From: Escherichia coli
GTDB lineage: Bacteria; Pseudomonadota; Gammaproteobacteria; Enterobacterales; Enterobacteriaceae
Strand: one strand, 5' to 3'
Length of the DNA stretch: 64,000 nt
NCBI RefSeq assembly: GCF_050920415.1
Contig: NZ_CP169309.1
In this document: piece by piece, positions 3,900 through 59,940 of the stretch
How positions within the stretch are numbered: position 1 is the first letter of the stretch
Layout of the letters: each line of letters begins with the position of its first letter
Notes under the pieces: model-generated
The model's database searches: none
What the model was told of the DNA's origin: nothing
What the model saw: the letters and a program-made list of their open reading frames with translations, nothing else
Position numbers and translations under genes: made by a program

Positions 3900-4130
3900 C
3901 ATGGCGGATGCAGCCTACGGTTCGGCACAGACCTGTAGGCATGATAAGACGCGTCAGCGTCGCATCAGGCATTGTGCGTCGACTGCCGGATGCGGTGTGA
4001 CGCCTTATCCGGCTTACGGTTCGGCACAGACTTGTAGGCATGATAAGACGCGTCAGCGTCGCATCAGGCATTGTGCGTCGACTGCCGGATGCGGTGTGAA
4101 CGCCTTATCCGGCTTACGAAGGGCAGACTA
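3900..4130. repeat. Tandem REP/BIME array, two ~96 bp units
   Basis: Near-identical units at about 3925-4020 and 4021-4115, each carrying GCCGGATGCGGTGTGA(A)CGCCTTATCCGGC. Confidence 0.8.
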
Positions 4131-46353: not shown

Positions 46354-46574
46354 GCTGCACCTCCGAGATGCTTCATGTTTTTTCCGGAGCGAAAGGCTAT
46401 AAGCGGCATACTGACGCGGTAATTACGGCCCAGCGGTTCACAAATCACCTTCTGACATTCACGGTCAACCAGGCTAACACGTAGAACATGCCCTGCAGGC
46501 GTGGTGTACCACTGACCCGGTCGAGGACAACGGAAAGTCTGATTGGTAAACCGTTTGAAAATATTCCGGATCAT
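46350..46574 (-). CDS. Hypothetical protein (74 aa)
   Basis: ORF only. Confidence 0.3.
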   Translation of the reverse strand: MIRNIFKRFTNQTFRCPRPGQWYTTPAGHVLRVSLVDRECQKVICEPLGRNYRVSMPLIAFRSGKNMKHLGGAA

Positions 46575-47722
46575 TTGCGCCCCCTTACCTCGGAAGAGTT
46601 CAGCGACGAATGAATAAGACGGGCAAGAAATGCCGCATCGTTAATTCGGTCATACAGACTTACAGCCAGCGGTGATTCAGCTTTTTCCAGCATGGGATAA
46701 AGCTGCTGCAACCAGACCTGATGAATTGATGAAATGTAGGAATAGAGTACGCTGGCGTTATGTGCAACGTCGCTCGGTACAGCGGGCTTTGAAAGCTGTT
46801 TCTCCATCTGGTTAAAGGCATTGATGTATGCCTCTTTGAACTGGGCAGCACGTTTACCCGTGAAACCCATAGCAAGAAACGCAAAACCGTCGCGGGTTAT
46901 TTGATAGCAAGGTAGTTTGCGGCCTGTGCAATCGGTGTAATCACTCACCGAAAAATTGCGGGCAGTGAATGATGCGGAGCATTCAAGCGTGCGGATCTTT
47001 TTCAGTACATCGTCATGACGTTTGGAGAAGAAGTTGGCAACAGCCAGGGATGAAGTAACAGCCTGACCATCAACGATGGCAATTTCAGGTTGAGTGAGGG
47101 TTGGGATCGTAGCCATGATGGCAGCCTCTTTGGTGATTTTTAATAACTCACCACCAAGGCTTTCCACGACCTTATTGGTGGTGAGACGTACAGGGGTGGA
47201 AATACCGGTCACCAAAGAACCCGGCCCAACCGAAGTTGGCCCTGCACGCCCCACCATAATTTGGGCGTAATGCTGCTCATGACACAAAAAAACCGCAAGA
47301 GCGCGGTTGTGCGCTTTGGTGAATTCCGGGTTTCCACGCCCGGCACCCGCTTTATAAGGTGCCTGAACAGTGTAACGTCCCGGAATGGCAGAATCAATGT
47401 GCTGGTGGTCCTTCACACTCAACAAAATCACGCCTGAATTTCCACAAAGGGCTAAAGCACTCATGCGGGTAGTCTTTGCGAAGATAGATAACGCGCTGTG
47501 TTTCTGGCTCCCAACGAATAACATGAACATAAAGTCCTCTTCCGTCACGAAACCAGCGGTTAAGTTCCTGCACAACTCGCCCCCCACAGTCAGGTAAAGT
47601 TCTCTGTGGTTACTTACAGCCAGGAGATTTGGTAATCTGCATTCATGCCGTAACAACAGGTGTTCAGCGACGCTGACCACCAGCTGTTGCGACAAATGGT
47701 TATTTGCCGTTAAACTGTTCAT
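46571..47722 (-). CDS. Rha-family phage regulatory protein with an uninterrupted ~200 aa upstream in-frame extension
   Basis: Rha-like domain starts at MATIPTLTQPEIAIVDGQAVTSSLAVANFF (about 47116); the 5' 202 codons have no stop and no recognised family. Confidence 0.5.
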   Translation of the reverse strand: MNSLTANNHLSQQLVVSVAEHLLLRHECRLPNLLAVSNHRELYLTVGGELCRNLTAGFVTEEDFMFMLFVGSQKHSALSIFAKTTRMSALALCGNSGVILLSVKDHQHIDSAIPGRYTVQAPYKAGAGRGNPEFTKAHNRALAVFLCHEQHYAQIMVGRAGPTSVGPGSLVTGISTPVRLTTNKVVESLGGELLKITKEAAIMATIPTLTQPEIAIVDGQAVTSSLAVANFFSKRHDDVLKKIRTLECSASFTARNFSVSDYTDCTGRKLPCYQITRDGFAFLAMGFTGKRAAQFKEAYINAFNQMEKQLSKPAVPSDVAHNASVLYSYISSIHQVWLQQLYPMLEKAESPLAVSLYDRINDAAFLARLIHSSLNSSEVRGRK

Positions 47723-48313: not shown

Positions 48314-48514
48314 TTAATCTTTCGGATAGATATCCGGTCTTAAGTCAGATTTCGTAATTGCACCTGACGTGCATTGCTCAAGTTTTTTAGCCAGCACAAA
48401 ACTGGCTTTTTTATAACCATTGAAAACCAGCCGTAAGTAGCCTGGTGTTGAGCCAACTTTTCCGGCCAACTCGCCCTGCTGTTCTTTGGTTAAAGAGTCC
48501 CAATACGCTTTCAT
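48314..48514 (-). CDS. cro: Cro-like repressor (66 aa)
   Basis: MKAYWDSLTKEQQGELAGKVGSTPGYLRLVFNGYKKASFVLAKKLEQCTSGAITKSDLRPDIY; divergent from cI. Confidence 0.7.
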   Translation of the reverse strand: MKAYWDSLTKEQQGELAGKVGSTPGYLRLVFNGYKKASFVLAKKLEQCTSGAITKSDLRPDIYPKD

Positions 48515-48604
48515 ACAATATGTACCTCTTATATACATATTACATGATTGAAATGAACCTTCAAGATACTTGTACCCTATCGGTACAAAGGTTTTAATTT
48601 CGTT
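48515..48604. promoter_or_regulatory. Immunity-region operator/promoter interval (OR, pR/pRM)
   Basis: Divergent cI/cro spacer containing the palindrome TTGTACCCTATCGGTACAA (48570-48588). Confidence 0.6.
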
Positions 48605-49279
48605 ATGAAAACAGTCCATGACATCCGGCGGTCTAACGCCAGAAAACTGAGAGATGGTGTTGGCGGGAATTCTTCCTTTGCCACCATGATTGATCGCGAA
48701 CCAACCCAGACCAGCAGGTTTATGGGAGATGGTGCTACTAAAAATATCGGTGACAGCATGGCACGGCACATCGAAAAATGTTTCGACCTGCCTGTCGGAT
48801 GGCTTGATCAAGAACACCAGACAACGAACATCACAAAAAAACCTGATGTTTCAATCACTAATAAACAAATAACGTTAGTCCCTGTCATATCATGGGTACA
48901 GGCCGGAGCATGGAAAGAAGTTGGCTATTCTGAGGTTGATTTGAGCACAACAGAAACATATCCCTGCCCTGTACCCTGTGGCGAAATGACTTATATATTG
49001 AGGGTGATTGGTGATTCAATGATTGATGAGTACCGTCCGGGGGACATGATTTTTGTCGATCCAGAAGTACCAGCCTGCCACGGCGATGACGTTATTGCAT
49101 TGATGCACGATACAGGTGAAACCACCTTCAAAAGGTTGATAGAAGACGGGACACAGCGTTATCTCAAAGCATTAAACCCCAACTGGCCTGAGCCTTACAT
49201 TAAGATAAACGGTAATTGCTCTATCATTGGTACAGTTATTTTCTCAGGAAAACCAAGAAGATACAAAATTAAAGCCTGA
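48605..49279 (+). CDS. cI: CI-type repressor with N-terminal HTH and C-terminal S24 (LexA-like) autopeptidase domain
   Basis: 224 aa; C-terminal ...YILRVIGDSMIDEYRPGDMIFVDPEV...KRLIEDG... typical of S24 peptidases. Confidence 0.8.
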   Translation: MKTVHDIRRSNARKLRDGVGGNSSFATMIDREPTQTSRFMGDGATKNIGDSMARHIEKCFDLPVGWLDQEHQTTNITKKPDVSITNKQITLVPVISWVQAGAWKEVGYSEVDLSTTETYPCPVPCGEMTYILRVIGDSMIDEYRPGDMIFVDPEVPACHGDDVIALMHDTGETTFKRLIEDGTQRYLKALNPNWPEPYIKINGNCSIIGTVIFSGKPRRYKIKA

Positions 49280-49293
49280 TCAATGTCTATGAA

Positions 49294-49314
49294 CCTGCTT
49301 CGGCAGGTTTTTTT
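49294..49314 (+). terminator. Intrinsic terminator after cI
   Basis: CCTGCTTCGGCAGG followed by T7. Confidence 0.7.
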
Positions 49315-49474
49315 ATACTTGACAATGTACCATTAAGATACATAATGTACCTGCATAAGATATCGAACAGGCAGGACGCCCACGAAGTAGCCGTCCGGGG
49401 CATACGAAGACCGGAATGGTTCGTAAATAAAAAAGCGCCCAAGTGGACGCTTCACTTTTGAACTGGATTTATAA

Positions 49475-49717
49475 TCAATTATTTTCTTCATAAATGTTTT
49501 GTAATGTATTTATGAGATTTGGTATTTCTTTTATGGGAAAAGAATATATTGGACTTTCGATAATTTTATCAGATTCAAATGGTGGTTGTTTGCAGGACAG
49601 TTGAACTATAACTGAATTATGATCTTTAACTGGCACACAGTACCAACCACATACATCAAAAACAGGAGTATTTTGATTATCCATTATGTCCTCGACAACT
49701 AAAAACACTGCGTACAA
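49475..49717 (-). CDS. Small hypothetical protein in an AT-rich segment next to cI
   Basis: ORF MDNQNTPVFDVCGWYCVPVKDHNSVIVQLSCKQPPF...; convergent with cI. Confidence 0.35.
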   Translation of the reverse strand: MYAVFLVVEDIMDNQNTPVFDVCGWYCVPVKDHNSVIVQLSCKQPPFESDKIIESPIYSFPIKEIPNLINTLQNIYEENN

Positions 49718-50347
49718 ACCTCAAAAGCAGGGAGTTATTTATAAAATTTCATAAAGAATAATTACTGATAGCGACAATTCATTGTTCTTGAATTTTGAAA
49801 AATAGCAAGACAAAACAATGTAAACTTATTTAAGAAAAGTTCTTATTATGTAAACAAAACAACCAATTCGTTATATAGGAAAAACAAATAGTACGCAAGA
49901 AAATATTCAACAGGGGTATTACATTCAACCATAAGAGTAATCGTCTCTTTGGTAACTAATACCGAACATTTTATTGTAACACGTCGTATGGCACATGCGT
50001 CGTTAGCGGTCTGGGGACGTTAAAGGGGACAATCCACTCCTTGCTCGGGCAAACAAACCAGGTAGCCGGAATGTGCAAGTCAATGATGATGCTGATAAGA
50101 CGCCTAACCAGCGTGGCGATCCGGTTTGACGCCTGGGAAGAGACCAGGGTGCAACGATGAGGGCATTTATGGAGCCGCGACAAAGTGTGGTGCCATAACT
50201 GGCTAAGTGCTCTCAGCGTTGTGGTAATCCGCGAAATGGCGCGGCGGTAAGTATGGCGGGGTTACTCTTTCCCCGTTGAGGACACCGGATTGTCAGGTTG
50301 ACCATACGCCTGAGTGACAACCCCACCACAACAGCCACTGCTTTGGC

Positions 50348-50382
50348 GGTACCAGCTTGTACCCTTGCTTCCGGCTGGTACC
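50348..50382. promoter_or_regulatory. Candidate left operator (OL)
   Basis: GGTACCAGCTTGTACCC...GGTACC shares TTGTACC / GGTAC half-sites with the OR palindrome. Confidence 0.4.
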
Positions 50383-50391
50383 GTCCTTTTT

Positions 50392-50480
50392 ACAAAACAG
50401 AGAAGAGCATCACCGGACGACGGGCTCATAACCCAATCCATCCGGGCGGCTGCCACCGCAGGTGTTCTTCTCTGTTTTGT
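50392..50480 (+). other. Long perfect inverted repeat (15 bp arms, ~59 nt spacer) in the early-left leader
   Basis: ACAAAACAGAGAAGA at 50392-50406 pairs with TCTTCTCTGTTTTGT at 50466-50480; adjacent CACC/GGTG extends the stem. Confidence 0.5.
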
Positions 50481-50528
50481 GGAGAAACCAACCGGCCTTG
50501 CAGGGTCGATATGATGAGGAGCAGCAAA

Positions 50529-50891
50529 ATGGCTAGCGAACGCAGTACTGATGTGCAGGCATTTATCGGGGAGCTGGACGGCGGCGTATTTGAAACCAAA
50601 ATCGGCGCAGTTCTCAGTGAAGTCGCTTCCGGTGTGATGAACACGAAAACCAAAGGTAAGGTCTCACTCAACCTGGAAATCGAACCATTTGATGAGAACC
50701 GTGTGAAAATCAAACACAAACTCTCATATGTTCGCCCGACTAACCGCGGGAAAATTTCCGAAGAAGACACCACCGAAACGCCGATGTATGTCAATCGCGG
50801 TGGTCGCCTGACTATTCTGCAGGAAGACCAGGGACAATTACTGACTCTTGCCGGTGAACCTGACGGAAAACTCCGCGCAGCAGGTCATTAA
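50529..50891 (+). CDS. YfdP-like prophage protein (120 aa)
   Basis: MASERSTDVQAFIGELDGGVFETKIG...; AGGAG RBS; order matches CPS-53 yfdP-yfdQ-yfdR. Confidence 0.55.
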   Translation: MASERSTDVQAFIGELDGGVFETKIGAVLSEVASGVMNTKTKGKVSLNLEIEPFDENRVKIKHKLSYVRPTNRGKISEEDTTETPMYVNRGGRLTILQEDQGQLLTLAGEPDGKLRAAGH

Positions 50892-52798: not shown

Positions 52799-53577
52799 TG
52801 ACCACATTTACCAATAAAGAACTGATTAAAGAAATCAAAGAACGAATCAGCAGCCTAGAGGTTCGAGACGATATTGAGCGCCGTGCTTATGAAATTGCTC
52901 TGGCATCGCTAGAAGAGGAGCCGGTGGCGTGGCTGCATTCAGAAAATGGCTTAGGTATTCCGGCAATAACGAGGAGTAAAAACATTGCTGACAGTTGGTT
53001 ATCAAAGGGCTGGTATGTTCAGCCGCTATATATAGCCAAGCCAGTGCCGGTAGTGCCAGATGCTCGTCCGTCTTTAAATAATGGCATAGTCGGTTTTGAT
53101 GAAGGCTGGAACGCCTGCCGCGCCGCCATGCTTCATGGTGCCGAACCTGTAAACCAAACTTACAAGTCACCACACACGCAGTTTGAACAAGTTGCTGACC
53201 TCTACGAAATGCAATTTGATGACGGTCGCACTTGTGCCTTTCACACTGATGCGCAAAAGGCTGCGCAATGGCTTCAGGTGTGCGACGGAAACAGGGTTCA
53301 GGAATACGTTAAGCTGGAACGGCTGCAGAACGCGCTGTCTGGCAACTCTCCGGTAAGTCCAGGTGGTTGGATAAGCTGTAGTGAGCGAATGCCGAATGAT
53401 AAACAGTATGTTTGGTGTTGGGGGAAGTCTTACGGCTGGACTGAGTGCGATACCTTCGAAGGGTATTACGATTGGTCGAGAAACAAATGGTGGGCAGTTA
53501 CTGACAATGAGGAAGAACAGGCATCGAAAGTAACCCACTGGATGCCACTACCGGAGCCGCCGCAGGAGGTGAAGTAA
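52798..53577 (+). CDS. DUF551 domain protein
   Basis: C-terminal ...QYVWCWGKSYGWTECDTFEGYYDWSRNKWWAVTDNEEEQASKVTHWMPLPEPP. Confidence 0.55.
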   Translation: MTTFTNKELIKEIKERISSLEVRDDIERRAYEIALASLEEEPVAWLHSENGLGIPAITRSKNIADSWLSKGWYVQPLYIAKPVPVVPDARPSLNNGIVGFDEGWNACRAAMLHGAEPVNQTYKSPHTQFEQVADLYEMQFDDGRTCAFHTDAQKAAQWLQVCDGNRVQEYVKLERLQNALSGNSPVSPGGWISCSERMPNDKQYVWCWGKSYGWTECDTFEGYYDWSRNKWWAVTDNEEEQASKVTHWMPLPEPPQEVK

Positions 53578-53771
53578 TGAACAACTTAATGACAACTAAA
53601 CAAGTCGCCGATTTCTGTGGTGTTTCAGTATCGACAGTTCTTCGCTGGAACAGCGTAAACAGGAGAACTGGTCAGAAATACAGGCCTGACTTTCCAGATC
53701 CTGATATTAAATCCTGCCCAAATAAATGGGCATCACACAAGATTTACAGATTTGCGGGAGTGATTGAGTAA
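53577..53771 (+). CDS. xis: Excisionase / AlpA-family HTH protein
   Basis: MNNLMTTKQVADFCGVSVSTVLRWN...; last gene of the early-left operon, near int. Confidence 0.7.
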   Translation: MNNLMTTKQVADFCGVSVSTVLRWNSVNRRTGQKYRPDFPDPDIKSCPNKWASHKIYRFAGVIE

Positions 53772-59319: not shown

Positions 59320-59500
<181 letters not shown>

Positions 59501-59617
59501 CCCGATGGACATTTTTCCAGCAATTACACCTCCGTCGATAATTAACTATTGACGAAAAGCTGAAAACCACTAGAATGCGCCTCCGTGGTAGCAATTCTTT
59601 TTAAGAATTGATGGTAT

Positions 59618-59704
59618 GCGAAGGTGGCGGAATTGGTAGACGCGCTAGCTTCAGGTGTTAGTGTCCTTACGGACGTGGGGGTTCAAGTCCCCCCCCTCGC
59701 ACCA
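59618..59704 (+). tRNA. leuQ: tRNA-Leu (anticodon CAG), 87 nt
   Basis: GCGAAGGTGGCGGAATTGGTAGACGCGCTAGCTTCAGGTGTTAGTGTCCTTACGGACGTGGGGGTTCAAGTCCCCCCCCTCGCACCA; which of leuQ/P/V each copy is depends on orientation. Confidence 0.9.
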
Positions 59705-59732
59705 AAAACCACGTTGATATTGCTCGCACTGG

Positions 59733-59819
59733 GCGAAGGTGGCGGAATTGGTAGACGCGCTAGCTTCAGGTGTTAGTGTTCTTACGGACGTGGGGGTTCA
59801 AGTCCCCCCCCTCGCACCA
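59733..59819 (+). tRNA. leuP: tRNA-Leu (anticodon CAG), 87 nt, one variable-arm substitution
   Basis: Same sequence with GTGTTC instead of GTGTCC. Confidence 0.9.
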
Positions 59820-59853
59820 AACGAGGCGATATCAAAAAAAGTAAGATGACTGT

Positions 59854-59940
59854 GCGAAGGTGGCGGAATTGGTAGACGCGCTAGCTTCAGGTGTTAGTGT
59901 CCTTACGGACGTGGGGGTTCAAGTCCCCCCCCTCGCACCA
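59854..59940 (+). tRNA. leuV: tRNA-Leu (anticodon CAG), 87 nt
   Basis: Third tandem copy, identical to the first. Confidence 0.9.

What the first reader, a model, noticed from the sequence alone, without database searches (positions are those of the whole stretch)
49280..50528. Immunity-region accessory segment beside cI: small AT-rich ORF, ~550 bp GC-rich ORF-free DNA and a long perfect hairpin
Between the cI terminator and the first early-left gene lies ~1.2 kb occupying the position of rexAB in lambda, a classic exclusion-gene slot. It holds an 80 aa AT-rich ORF convergent with cI (49475-49717), then a GC-rich stretch (about 49950-50350) with no convincing ORF in any frame, then an OL-like operator and a 15 bp-arm perfect inverted repeat (50392-50480). 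No N-like antiterminator gene is visible, so the leader hairpin could be an RNA-based antitermination element (HK022 put-like), a terminator or a small RNA. The ORF-free GC-rich segment may encode a structured ncRNA.
Basis: partly seen in the sequence, partly recalled or inferred. Interest (0 to 1): 0.6.

Follow-up and report, generated by a model that had tools for sequence, protein, structure and literature searches.

The report
Structured RNA leader of prophage pL operon
The "empty" GC-rich DNA beside the prophage repressor gene is the untranslated start of the early-left transcript, made of conserved folded-RNA modules, tRNA-linked and absent from Rfam, that sit unannotated in a third to half of sequenced E. 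coli genomes.

Summary
pL and its operator lie directly after the cI terminator (49319-49346), not at about 50340-50390.

An AT-rich moron (49380-49965, orphan 69/80-aa ORF on the minus strand) is inserted into the pL leader in only 29 of 5,426 E. coli genomes.

The GC-rich segment is non-coding and consists of RNA modules on the + strand:
- **A (49981-50224):** a roughly 245-nt RNA with at least one covarying pseudoknot, strong covariation, no Rfam match. It is fused in a fixed register to tRNA-Arg(UCU) in phiV10-like phages and sits 14 nt after tRNA-Ile in P1.
- **B (50218-50332):** occupies the tRNA slot. Some variants are clearly tRNA-like.
- **T1 (50345-50391):** a conserved intrinsic-terminator-like hairpin.
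- **LH (50392-50480):** the long hairpin, a covarying three-way junction. Its tip copies 14 nt of the initiator tRNA anticodon arm.

Most likely this is an early ncRNA/tRNA-like cassette, followed by an attenuator and a processing or translation-control hairpin. A put-like antiterminator role is untested, and there is no sequence similarity to HK022 put. Function is inferred; structure and conservation are shown.

The parts
49291..49317 (+). cI terminator (stem-loop plus T-run)
   Evidence: Terminator scan. Conserved in Ayreon.
49319..49346 (+). pL promoter (TTGACA-16-CATAAT, 11/12) with operator OL TGTACCATTAAGATACA at 49326-49342
   Evidence: The operator motif is found only here and twice in the cI-cro intergenic region. 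The same promoter is annotated in phage Ayreon.
49380..49965 (-). AT-rich moron inserted into the pL leader. It carries an orphan ORF at 49475-49717 (69 aa from the ATG at 49684) and its own minus-strand terminator at 49432-49453.
   Evidence: Absent from cdtI, Ayreon, 2H10, Stx2c phages and mEp460. The whole arrangement is present in 29 of 5,426 E. coli genomes. The protein has only 4 E. coli-only clusters and no Pfam, PHROG or PADLOC hit.
49981..50224 (+). Module A, a roughly 245-nt structured RNA. Helices: H1 49982-50002; H2 50010-13/50059-62; invariant GGUAGCCGGAAUGUGCAAG 50061-50079; H4 50100-50114 with loop CUAACCA; pseudoknot 50106-09 with 50123-26; H5 50132-50148 with loop GAAGAGA; H6 50152-50221, ending GUU|GUGG.
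   Evidence: Alignments A1, A3 and A4. Covariation. Covariance model R1 scores 153.6 bits, one copy in the window. No Rfam hit. No conserved ORF.
50218..50332 (+). Module B, the tRNA-slot module. It is closed by GUUGUGGU/ACCACAAC. In other phages this slot holds tRNA-Arg(UCU) or tRNA-like RNAs with D and T arms.
   Evidence: The window's variant keeps only the acceptor-like closing helix.
50345..50391 (+). T1, an intrinsic-terminator-like hairpin: GGCGGUACCAGC...GCUGGUACCGUC (-23 kcal/mol for the 50341-50392 fold) followed by C and U5.
   Evidence: In 93 of 95 distinct upstream contexts a hairpin (median -19 kcal/mol) plus T4-7 (91 of 93 with T5-7) precedes the long hairpin, in 91 of the 93 within 0-2 nt of the stem, and the stems differ in sequence between contexts. 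The phiV10 equivalent is flagged by the terminator scan.
50392..50480 (+). LH, the long hairpin: a 20-bp outer stem and a three-way junction. The apical loop CGGGCUCAUAACCC (50421-50434) is identical to the initiator tRNA-fMet anticodon stem-loop.
50482..50531 (+). Conserved UGGAGAAACYAAC, then a small hairpin at 50493-50508 (stem sequence varies between phages; loop usually ends GCAG), then SD GAGGAG 50516-50521 and the yfdP ATG at 50529.
   Evidence: Read. Not formally tested.

Best explanation
The segment is the 5' untranslated leader of the early-left (pL) transcript of a lambdoid prophage that lacks an N gene. pL fires at about 49353 once the repressor is gone.

The proposed sequence of events is:
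1. The transcript first crosses a strain-specific AT-rich moron in antisense.
2. It then makes module A, an ornate pseudoknotted RNA whose 3' hairpin ends exactly at position +1 of a tRNA or tRNA-like module (module B here).
3. tRNA-processing enzymes are proposed to release A as a discrete early non-coding RNA. RNase P would cut at GUU|G, and 3'-end maturation would do so where a tRNA precedes A, as in P1.
4. Terminator T1 ends many transcripts there, so it acts as an attenuator.
5. Transcripts that read through carry the long hairpin LH. Its 20-bp stem is a plausible RNase III or stability element. Its tip displays a copy of the initiator-tRNA anticodon arm just upstream of the first ribosome-binding site, where it could set translation or stability of yfdP and the genes behind it.

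What is shown: promoter and operator placement; non-coding nature; the RNA strand; secondary structures with covariation; the tRNA register; terminator conservation; distribution.

What is inferred: processing by RNase P and RNase III; attenuation at T1; what the released A RNA does.
For: - **Promoter and operator:**. In phages without the moron, A starts about 40 nt after pL.
- **Module A structure (MAFFT alignment):** 94.9% of cells paired against 87.5% in shuffles (0 of 500 reach it); 20 pairs changed on both sides; slid controls 29-48% paired.
- **Module A on 39 distinct sequences:** 93.6% against 83.9%, with 12 of 26 pairs changed on both sides.
- **Pseudoknot and strand:** the loop NACC pairs with GGUN' and switches C-G to A-U together. 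G-U pairs occur only on the + strand.
- **Not coding:** no reading frame is kept open across homologues, and lengths differ by non-multiples of three.
- **tRNA register:** tRNA-Arg(UCU) starts at the G of GUU|GUGG in about 40 of 134 contexts, always in the same register. In P1 the core starts 14 nt after tRNA-Ile.
- **tRNA-like module B variants:**
- **T1 conservation:**
- **LH structure:** 94.3% paired against 89.6% in shuffles (0 of 500), 9 pairs changed on both sides.
- **Anticodon-arm copy:** 14-nt identity with metZ. The same motif lies 77-86 nt before holin genes behind a terminator.
- **Distribution:** module A in 1,636 and T1+LH in 2,496 of 5,426 E. coli genomes, and in 24 representative genome contigs, nearly all Enterobacterales (two are short MAG contigs binned as Bacillota/Lachnospiraceae).
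Against: - No expression or processing data were available. RNase P and RNase III cleavage and termination at T1 are all inferred from sequence.
- Module A is optional: only 33 of 99 LH-bearing loci have it, and one phage with the same pL has LH alone. Whatever A does is therefore not essential for the operon.
- The window's module B keeps little tRNA likeness.
- H6 pairs with the first three nucleotides of the tRNA, which would hinder rather than help RNase P.
- The second pseudoknot (GCACAU with AUGUGC) rests on invariant bases only.
- In this window 620 nt of antisense moron separate pL from A, so the module may be poorly expressed here.
Confidence: 0.5

Rival explanations
1. RNA-based processive antitermination, working like HK022 put. 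Module A and/or LH would fold on the nascent pL transcript, bind RNA polymerase, and let it read through T1 and later terminators without an N protein.
For: - No N-like gene is present.
- The elements lie directly behind pL.
- A conserved terminator sits immediately downstream of A/B and immediately upstream of LH, and another follows yfdQ.
- Casjens and colleagues suggest that the N-less lambdoid phage LLS (whose Q protein is closest to that of phage 2H10, which carries A, B, T1 and LH) may use a put-like mechanism (PMC12315714).
Against: - No sequence similarity to the HK022 PL-putL-nun region.
- A is about 245 nt with pseudoknots, whereas put is about 70 nt with two stem-loops (PMC9378689).
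- There is no second copy in the pR operon or anywhere else in the window.
- A is absent from two thirds of LH leaders.
- In P1, A sits at the end of the ban leader with no terminator after it.
- The LH motif also precedes holin genes in late operons, which in lambda-type phages are read by Q-modified polymerase (established knowledge).
Confidence: 0.2
2. tRNA-mimic anti-defence or host-takeover RNAs. The early leader would flood the cell with tRNA-like decoys (module B, the initiator-anticodon arm of LH, perhaps A). These would absorb or inhibit tRNA-targeting nucleases such as VapC-type toxins, which cut initiator tRNA, or they would titrate a tRNA-binding host factor.
For: - Tight linkage to tRNA genes and tRNA-like modules.
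- Exact 14-nt copy of the tRNA-fMet anticodon arm.
- Expression predicted at the earliest moment of lytic growth (pL; ban operon in P1).
- Mosaic, fast-swapping modules as expected for an arms race.
- Enteric VapC toxins cleave initiator tRNA in the anticodon stem-loop. This rests on my own knowledge (Winther and Gerdes 2011), not on a tool result.
Against: - Purely circumstantial: no defence system was tested or found nearby.
- Variants change the loop to CUCAUUC and weaken the anticodon-arm likeness.
- A cis-located motif next to a ribosome-binding site fits a cis role equally well.
Confidence: 0.12
3. Decaying remnants of a phage tRNA gene array, or DNA-level recombination sites (CAAC...GUUG hairpins resembling integron attC). 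On this view there is no RNA function.
For: - Modules are exchanged exactly at the GUUGUGG and CCACAAC boundaries.
- [hairpin + tRNA-like] cassettes occur in arrays.
- Several B variants look like broken tRNAs.
Against: - Compensatory changes maintain helices, including a pseudoknot, across sequences of 55-80% identity.
- G-U pairs are strand-specific.
- The 19-nt core is invariant across enterobacterial genera.
- The core sites do not fit the integron GTTRRRY / RYYYAAC consensus (read directly from the sequence).
- No integron integrase appeared in the regions examined around these loci, though this was not searched systematically.
Confidence: 0.05

Closest known systems
HK022 put RNAs (putL/putR)
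   Same: A cis-encoded RNA directly downstream of the early promoter of a lambdoid phage that lacks N. The role is a candidate for the same task.
   Different: put is about 70 nt with two stem-loops and is present in both early operons (PMC9378689). Here the elements are 245 nt (pseudoknotted) and 90 nt (three-way junction), have one copy each, show no sequence similarity, and are linked to tRNAs.
tRNA-linked phage non-coding RNAs: GOLLD and ROOL, and T4 stable RNAs 'species 1 and 2' (own knowledge)
   Same: Ornate or stable RNAs of unknown function, encoded by phages or prophages next to tRNA genes and co-transcribed with them.
   Different: No Rfam match to GOLLD, ROOL or any other family. 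Module A is much smaller than GOLLD or ROOL, is restricted to Enterobacterales, sits in a fixed register with the tRNA 5' end, and lies in a repressor-controlled early leader.
E. coli metY-nusA-infB leader and the lambda N-leader RNase III hairpin (own knowledge)
   Same: The order promoter, then tRNA, then weak terminator, then long RNase III hairpin, then first cistron. In lambda, a long hairpin lies between pL and the first gene and sets its translation.
   Different: Cleavage was not tested here. LH has a conserved three-way junction and an anticodon-arm copy, which a plain RNase III site would not need.
thrS operator (anticodon-arm mimic in an mRNA leader; own knowledge)
   Same: A copy of a tRNA anticodon stem-loop displayed on a hairpin just upstream of a ribosome-binding site.
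   Different: The copied tRNA is the initiator, the genes are phage genes unrelated to aminoacylation, and no binding partner is known.
Lambda rexAB-type exclusion morons
   Same: The AT-rich ORF is an accessory gene in the immunity region with its own terminator. It is oriented so that it could be expressed in the lysogen.
   Different: It lies downstream of pL on the opposite strand and is not co-transcribed with cI. It is an orphan 69-80-aa protein with no match to defence or phage families.

Membership tests
HK022 put RNA | Sequence or structure relatedness to putL/putR (about 70 nt, two stem-loops) | tested here: not met
   BLAST of 49280-50528 against the HK022 PL-putL-nun region gives only chance hits. 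putL was read. The sizes and folds differ.
HK022 put RNA | One copy behind each early promoter (PL and PR) | tested here: not met
   There is a single copy of A and of LH in 64 kb, and none in the pR operon.
HK022 put RNA | Factor-independent antitermination that depends on the RNA polymerase beta' zinc-binding domain | not testable with these tools
   Needs in vitro transcription or genetics.
Lambda nut site / N system | An N-like arginine-rich protein together with boxA and a boxB hairpin | tested here: not met
   No arginine-rich small ORF lies near the immunity region. H5 has a GAAGAGA loop reminiscent of boxB, but no boxA was seen (direct reading only).
Intrinsic terminator (T1, 50345-50391) | GC-rich hairpin followed within 0-2 nt by a run of at least 5 U, conserved in homologues | tested here: met
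   The stem is -23 kcal/mol and is followed by C and U5. The pattern holds in 93 of 95 contexts, with different stem sequences. The phiV10 homologue is flagged by the scan. The window copy escapes the simple scan only because its loop is 17 nt. Actual termination was not tested.
Intrinsic terminator (long hairpin, 50392-50480) | U-tract after the stem | tested here: not met
   The stem is followed by GGAGAAACC.
Repressor operator (OL) at 50340-50390 | Match to the operator motif of this immunity type, and immunity-specific sequence | tested here: not met
   The motif occurs only at 48521, 48571 and 49326. The same T1 sequence is found in mEp460, whose repressor is unrelated.
tRNA (module B) | Cloverleaf with D arm, anticodon arm, T arm and an NCCA end | tested here: inconclusive
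   ARAGORN and Rfam find no tRNA in the window's module B. Other variants have D and T arms and are called tRNA only with an 'intron'. Most end in AAC, and a few in ACCA.
Any Rfam family (4,227 models, including GOLLD, ROOL, T-box, RNase P and tmRNA) | Covariance-model score at or above the family's gathering threshold | tested here: not met
   Nothing in 49200-50700 reaches gathering score. The best sub-threshold hits have E of 0.27 or more and are noise. Homologous loci give only tRNA, isrI and isrJ.
RNase III substrate (LH stem) | About 20 bp of near-perfect double-stranded RNA, and cleavage in vivo | tested here: inconclusive
   A 20-bp stem with covariation is present. Cleavage is not testable here.
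Integron attC-like site (H6) | RYYYAAC ... GTTRRRY core sites and an associated IntI integrase | tested here: not met
   GUUGUGG and CCACAAC break the purine/pyrimidine pattern (direct reading). No integron integrase was seen in the regions examined; this was not searched systematically.
rexAB-type exclusion gene | Located between cI and pL, co-transcribed with cI, with similarity to known exclusion or defence proteins | tested here: not met
   The ORF lies downstream of pL on the opposite strand. It has no PADLOC, PHROG or Pfam match.

The most novel reading that the evidence does not exclude
Module A, together with its attached tRNA or tRNA-like module, is a new class of phage-encoded ornate RNA that is released by tRNA-processing enzymes at the very start of lytic growth. 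It would act either as a protein-free antiterminator for N-less lambdoid phages or as a tRNA-world decoy. The initiator-anticodon-arm hairpin (LH) would be a second new cis element that controls the first gene of phage operons.
Probability: 0.25. Interest if true: 0.85.

Novelty: new variant of a known kind. Interest (0 to 1): 0.7.

Why it matters
Many lambdoid phages of E. coli, Shigella and Salmonella have no N gene. How they express their early operons is an open question, and the literature only guesses at a put-like RNA (PMC12315714). This work gives concrete, covariation-supported RNA candidates at exactly the right place.

It also shows that these candidates are among the commonest unannotated elements in E. 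coli prophages. Module A is in 30% of complete E. coli genomes and T1+LH in 46%.

Two features tie the leader to tRNA biology and can be tested directly with existing phages (Ayreon, mEp460, 2H10, P1, phiV10): the precise fusion of module A to tRNA genes, and the exact copy of the initiator-tRNA anticodon arm. The same tRNA association is seen for the unexplained GOLLD and ROOL RNAs.

At the least, the elements deserve Rfam families, so that the spurious 'hypothetical proteins' annotated over them can be removed.

Tried and rejected
- **Rfam:** scans at gathering and at E up to 10 found nothing in the segment.
- **Full-text searches for the invariant sequence strings:** zero papers, as DNA or RNA.
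- **Keyword searches:** yfdP, put/HK639, ROOL/GOLLD, P1 RNA-seq and initiator-tRNA mimics gave no description of these elements. King et al. 2011 on put-like RNAs is not held.
- **HK022 comparison:** no similarity.
- **E. coli K-12 CPS-53** (yfdP upstream region): lacks all modules, so K-12 transcriptome data cannot be used.
- **Protein-coding reading of the GC-rich segment:** rejected. The 'hypothetical proteins' annotated there in Ayreon, mEp460 and some RefSeq genomes are not conserved ORFs.
- **N-like protein search:** negative.
- **tmRNA search of the tRNA-like modules:** negative.
- **Considered by eye and dropped:**
  - T-box likeness (UGGUACC in T1 is not conserved in other T1 variants).
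  - ops/RfaH likeness of GGCGGUA (it is part of a covarying stem).
  - boxA likeness of GCUCAUAACCCAA (9 of 12 matches, weaker than the 14-of-14 match to tRNA-fMet).
  - Integron attC likeness.
- **ORF80:** no function found. No structure prediction was attempted.
- **Not followed up:** the second P1 locus matching the query and two weak R1 hits.
Full report
**Layout of the region**

The window carries a lambdoid prophage.
- A cro-like gene (48314-48517, minus strand) and a cI-like gene (48605-49279, plus strand; LexA/S24 family, PHROG 4) face away from each other.
- The cI terminator (49291-49310) is followed at once by a near-consensus promoter, TTGACA-16-CATAAT, at 49319-49346.
- The operator-like palindrome TGTACC-N5-GRTACA occurs in the whole 64 kb only at 48521 and 48571, between cro and cI, and at 49326, inside that promoter. 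About 0.32 sites are expected by chance.
- pL/OL is therefore at 49319-49346. The early-left genes yfdP (50529-50891), yfdQ and yfdR follow on the same strand.
- The same terminator-promoter pair is annotated in phage Ayreon.

**Checking the observation**

The 80-aa ORF, the AT-rich and GC-rich compositions, the lack of a convincing ORF, and the 15-bp perfect (25-nt, 84%) inverted repeat at 50392-50480 are all present.

The 'OL-like operator' next to the hairpin is not an operator.
- It is the stem of a hairpin, GGCGGTACCAGC...GCTGGTACCGTC, followed by C and T5.
- The same sequence occurs in mEp460, whose repressor shares only the S24 protease domain with this cI.

Because pL abuts the cI terminator, there is no rexAB-type slot between cI and pL.

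**The AT-rich part**

Region 49380-49965 is an insertion into the pL leader.
- Phages cdtI, Ayreon, 2H10 and the Stx2c phages match the flanks but lack it, as does mEp460, which has a different immunity region.
- Only 29 of 5,426 complete E. coli genomes have the whole arrangement.
- It carries one ORF on the minus strand, with a good minus-strand terminator at 49453-49432.
- The protein has four E. coli-only clusters at 74-100% identity and no Pfam, PHROG or PADLOC match.

It is best called an orphan moron. An exclusion role is possible but has no support.

**Module A (49981-50224)**

The GC-rich segment is mosaic.

*Homologues and their tRNA neighbours*
- In P1, P7, D6 and SJ46, module A lies right after tRNA-Ile and before ban.
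- In phiV10, TL-2011b and related phages, it lies right before tRNA-Arg.
- It is also found in SPN1S, mEp390 and many prophages.
- Scans with two conserved motifs brought in about 130 loci.

*Structure and covariation*
- A MAFFT alignment of 30 diverse sequences (A1) shows conserved blocks separated by variable hairpins.
- I tested a hand-drawn structure with five nested helices and two pseudoknots.
  - 94.9% of cells are paired, against 87.5% in column shuffles (0 of 500 reach it).
  - 20 pairs have changes on both sides.
  - Partners slid by 1-3 columns give only 29-48% paired.
- A covariance model of the 165-nt core (R1) finds one copy in the window (153.6 bits) and none on the opposite strand.
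- On 39 distinct hits, including divergent ones, 93.6% of cells are paired against 83.9%, and 12 of 26 pairs changed on both sides.
- The pseudoknot between the hairpin loop (C/A)ACC and the downstream GGU(G/U) changes in step.
- The other proposed pseudoknot, GCACAU with AUGUGC, involves only invariant bases and is unproven.

*Strand and coding potential*
- G-U pairs appear only on the + strand.
- No reading frame stays open across the homologues, and lengths differ by non-multiples of three.

*Prior description and distribution*
- Rfam has no match, even at E up to 10.
- The invariant strings appear in no paper of the held library.
- Module A is present in 1,636 of 5,426 E. coli genomes, on P1-like plasmids, and in 24 representative genome contigs, nearly all Enterobacterales. 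It is never annotated.

**Link to tRNAs**

- In about 40 of 134 distinct contexts a tRNA-Arg(UCU) begins exactly at the G of the terminal GUU|GUGG (Rfam confirms this for phiV10).
- In P1-like phages a tRNA-Ile(CAU) ends 13-15 nt before the element.
- Where no tRNA follows, the slot is filled by 'module B' (50218-50332 here). This is closed by GUUGUGGU/ACCACAAC.
- Several B variants have clear D and T arms, an acceptor-like stem and a large insertion. ARAGORN calls them tRNAs only when introns are allowed.
- [H6-like hairpin + tRNA-like module] cassettes can be repeated.
- The base before the junction is always U, which E. coli RNase P prefers (own knowledge).

This makes release of A by tRNA-processing enzymes the simplest model. 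The model is inference, and the pairing of H6 with the first three tRNA bases argues for some competition.

**T1 and the long hairpin**

*T1*
- I collected loci with the apical motif of the hairpin.
- In 93 of 95 distinct upstream contexts the hairpin is preceded by a GC-rich stem-loop (median -19 kcal/mol) and, in 91 of those 93 within 0-2 nt, a run of 4-7 T (5-7 in 91 of 93). The stems differ in sequence but keep pairing.
- In phiV10 this stem-loop is flagged as a terminator.

*LH structure*
- The long hairpin has a 20-bp outer stem and a three-way junction.
- On 18 diverse sequences, 94.3% of cells are paired against 89.6% in shuffles (0 of 500). Nine pairs changed on both sides, and slid controls give 35-52%.
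- Its conserved loop contains CGGGCUCAUAACCC. This is identical over 14 nt to the anticodon stem-loop of E. coli initiator tRNA, including the three G-C pairs that mark initiators. It occurs once in the window, where 0.08 is expected allowing one mismatch.

*Where else the motif occurs*
- In hairpins with unrelated outer stems, it lies behind a terminator and 77-86 nt before holin/antiholin genes with an MKM dual start, near isrI or isrJ.
- One phage with the same pL as the window has LH directly behind pL, without A, B or T1.
- Only 33 of 99 LH loci carry A.
- T1+LH of this type is in 2,496 of 5,426 E. coli genomes, annotated as nothing or as 'hypothetical protein'.

**Interpretation**

What is shown:
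- The segment is the pL leader.
- It is non-coding.
- It consists of at least three structured RNA elements under selection, plus a terminator-like hairpin.

The best-supported mechanism has three parts.
- An early ncRNA/tRNA-like cassette (A-B) is cut out by tRNA-processing enzymes.
- T1 attenuates transcription.
- LH acts on processing, stability or translation of the first cistron.

The recurrence of LH before the first gene of both early-left and late operons favours a post-transcriptional role over antitermination.

It cannot be excluded, but four things count against family membership:
- No similarity to HK022 put.
- No pR copy.
- Different size and fold.
- The optional nature of A.

A decoy role against tRNA-targeting systems is attractive but circumstantial.

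**Novelty**

I found no prior description in Rfam release 15 or in the searchable literature. The library lacks most subscription journals, so an older report cannot be ruled out.

The kinds of element involved are known: phage leader RNAs, tRNA-linked phage ncRNAs, attenuators and anticodon-arm mimics. These particular families and their combination appear to be new.

Noticed in passing
window 47174-47362 (-): Rfam C4 antisense RNA (83.6 bits) and isrK (67 bits) lie inside the 5' third of the 383-aa 'Rha family' ORF (46571-47722) in the pR operon. This looks like a P1 immI-type c4/antirepressor module, so the annotated long ORF start is doubtful.
   Followed up: no
window 37260-38543 (-): STnc100 sRNA (148.7 bits) lies next to a phage tRNA cluster: a tRNA-Ile2-like (CAT) gene, a degenerate tRNA-like stretch at 38380-38468, and tRNA-Arg(TCT). 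The layout resembles ileZ-argN-argO of Stx phages.
   Followed up: partly
window 49368-49425 (+): The first 60 nt behind pL (GAACAGGCAGGACGCCCACGAAGUAGCC...) recur in another phage (L189) behind an HK022-like PL/operator. They can form two small stem-loops, which is put-like in position and size, but they show no sequence similarity to putL.
   Followed up: partly
L188:9592-9747, L202:1108-1263, L200:4512-4667: The initiator-anticodon-arm motif sits in hairpins with unrelated stems. It lies after a terminator and 77-86 nt before lambda-S-type holin/antiholin genes (PHROG 126), close to isrJ or isrI.
   Followed up: partly
window 50482-50508 (+) and homologues: After the long hairpin comes a conserved UGGAGAAACYAAC and a small hairpin just before the Shine-Dalgarno sequence. 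The hairpin's stem sequence differs between phages while remaining self-complementary, and its loop usually ends in GCAG. This resembles a nut-like boxA/boxB arrangement but was not tested.
   Followed up: no
L033, L069, L171, L181 (leaders of other prophages): Arrays of short hairpins with loops GGAAAGAC or GAAGAGA, like H5 of module A, occur in some leaders. They may be a repeated protein- or RNA-binding motif.
   Followed up: no
L066, L113, L192, L197 and others: A conserved 5' hairpin, ACCACCGAGCCUGAUGUGGUGAAAAGACAGGC, opens many of these leaders, upstream of module A or of the first tRNA-like module.
   Followed up: no
window 59396-59940 and 3938-4114: Three tandem tRNA-Leu(CAG) genes and naRNA4/REP-type repeats mark host chromosome at the right end of the window. 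An excisionase-like ORF at 53577-53771 suggests that the prophage end lies between.
   Followed up: no
L004 (P1): The P1 record has a second place matching the query, which I did not locate. The P1 copy of module A stops after H5 and is followed by a 14-codon ORF overlapping the ban start.
   Followed up: no
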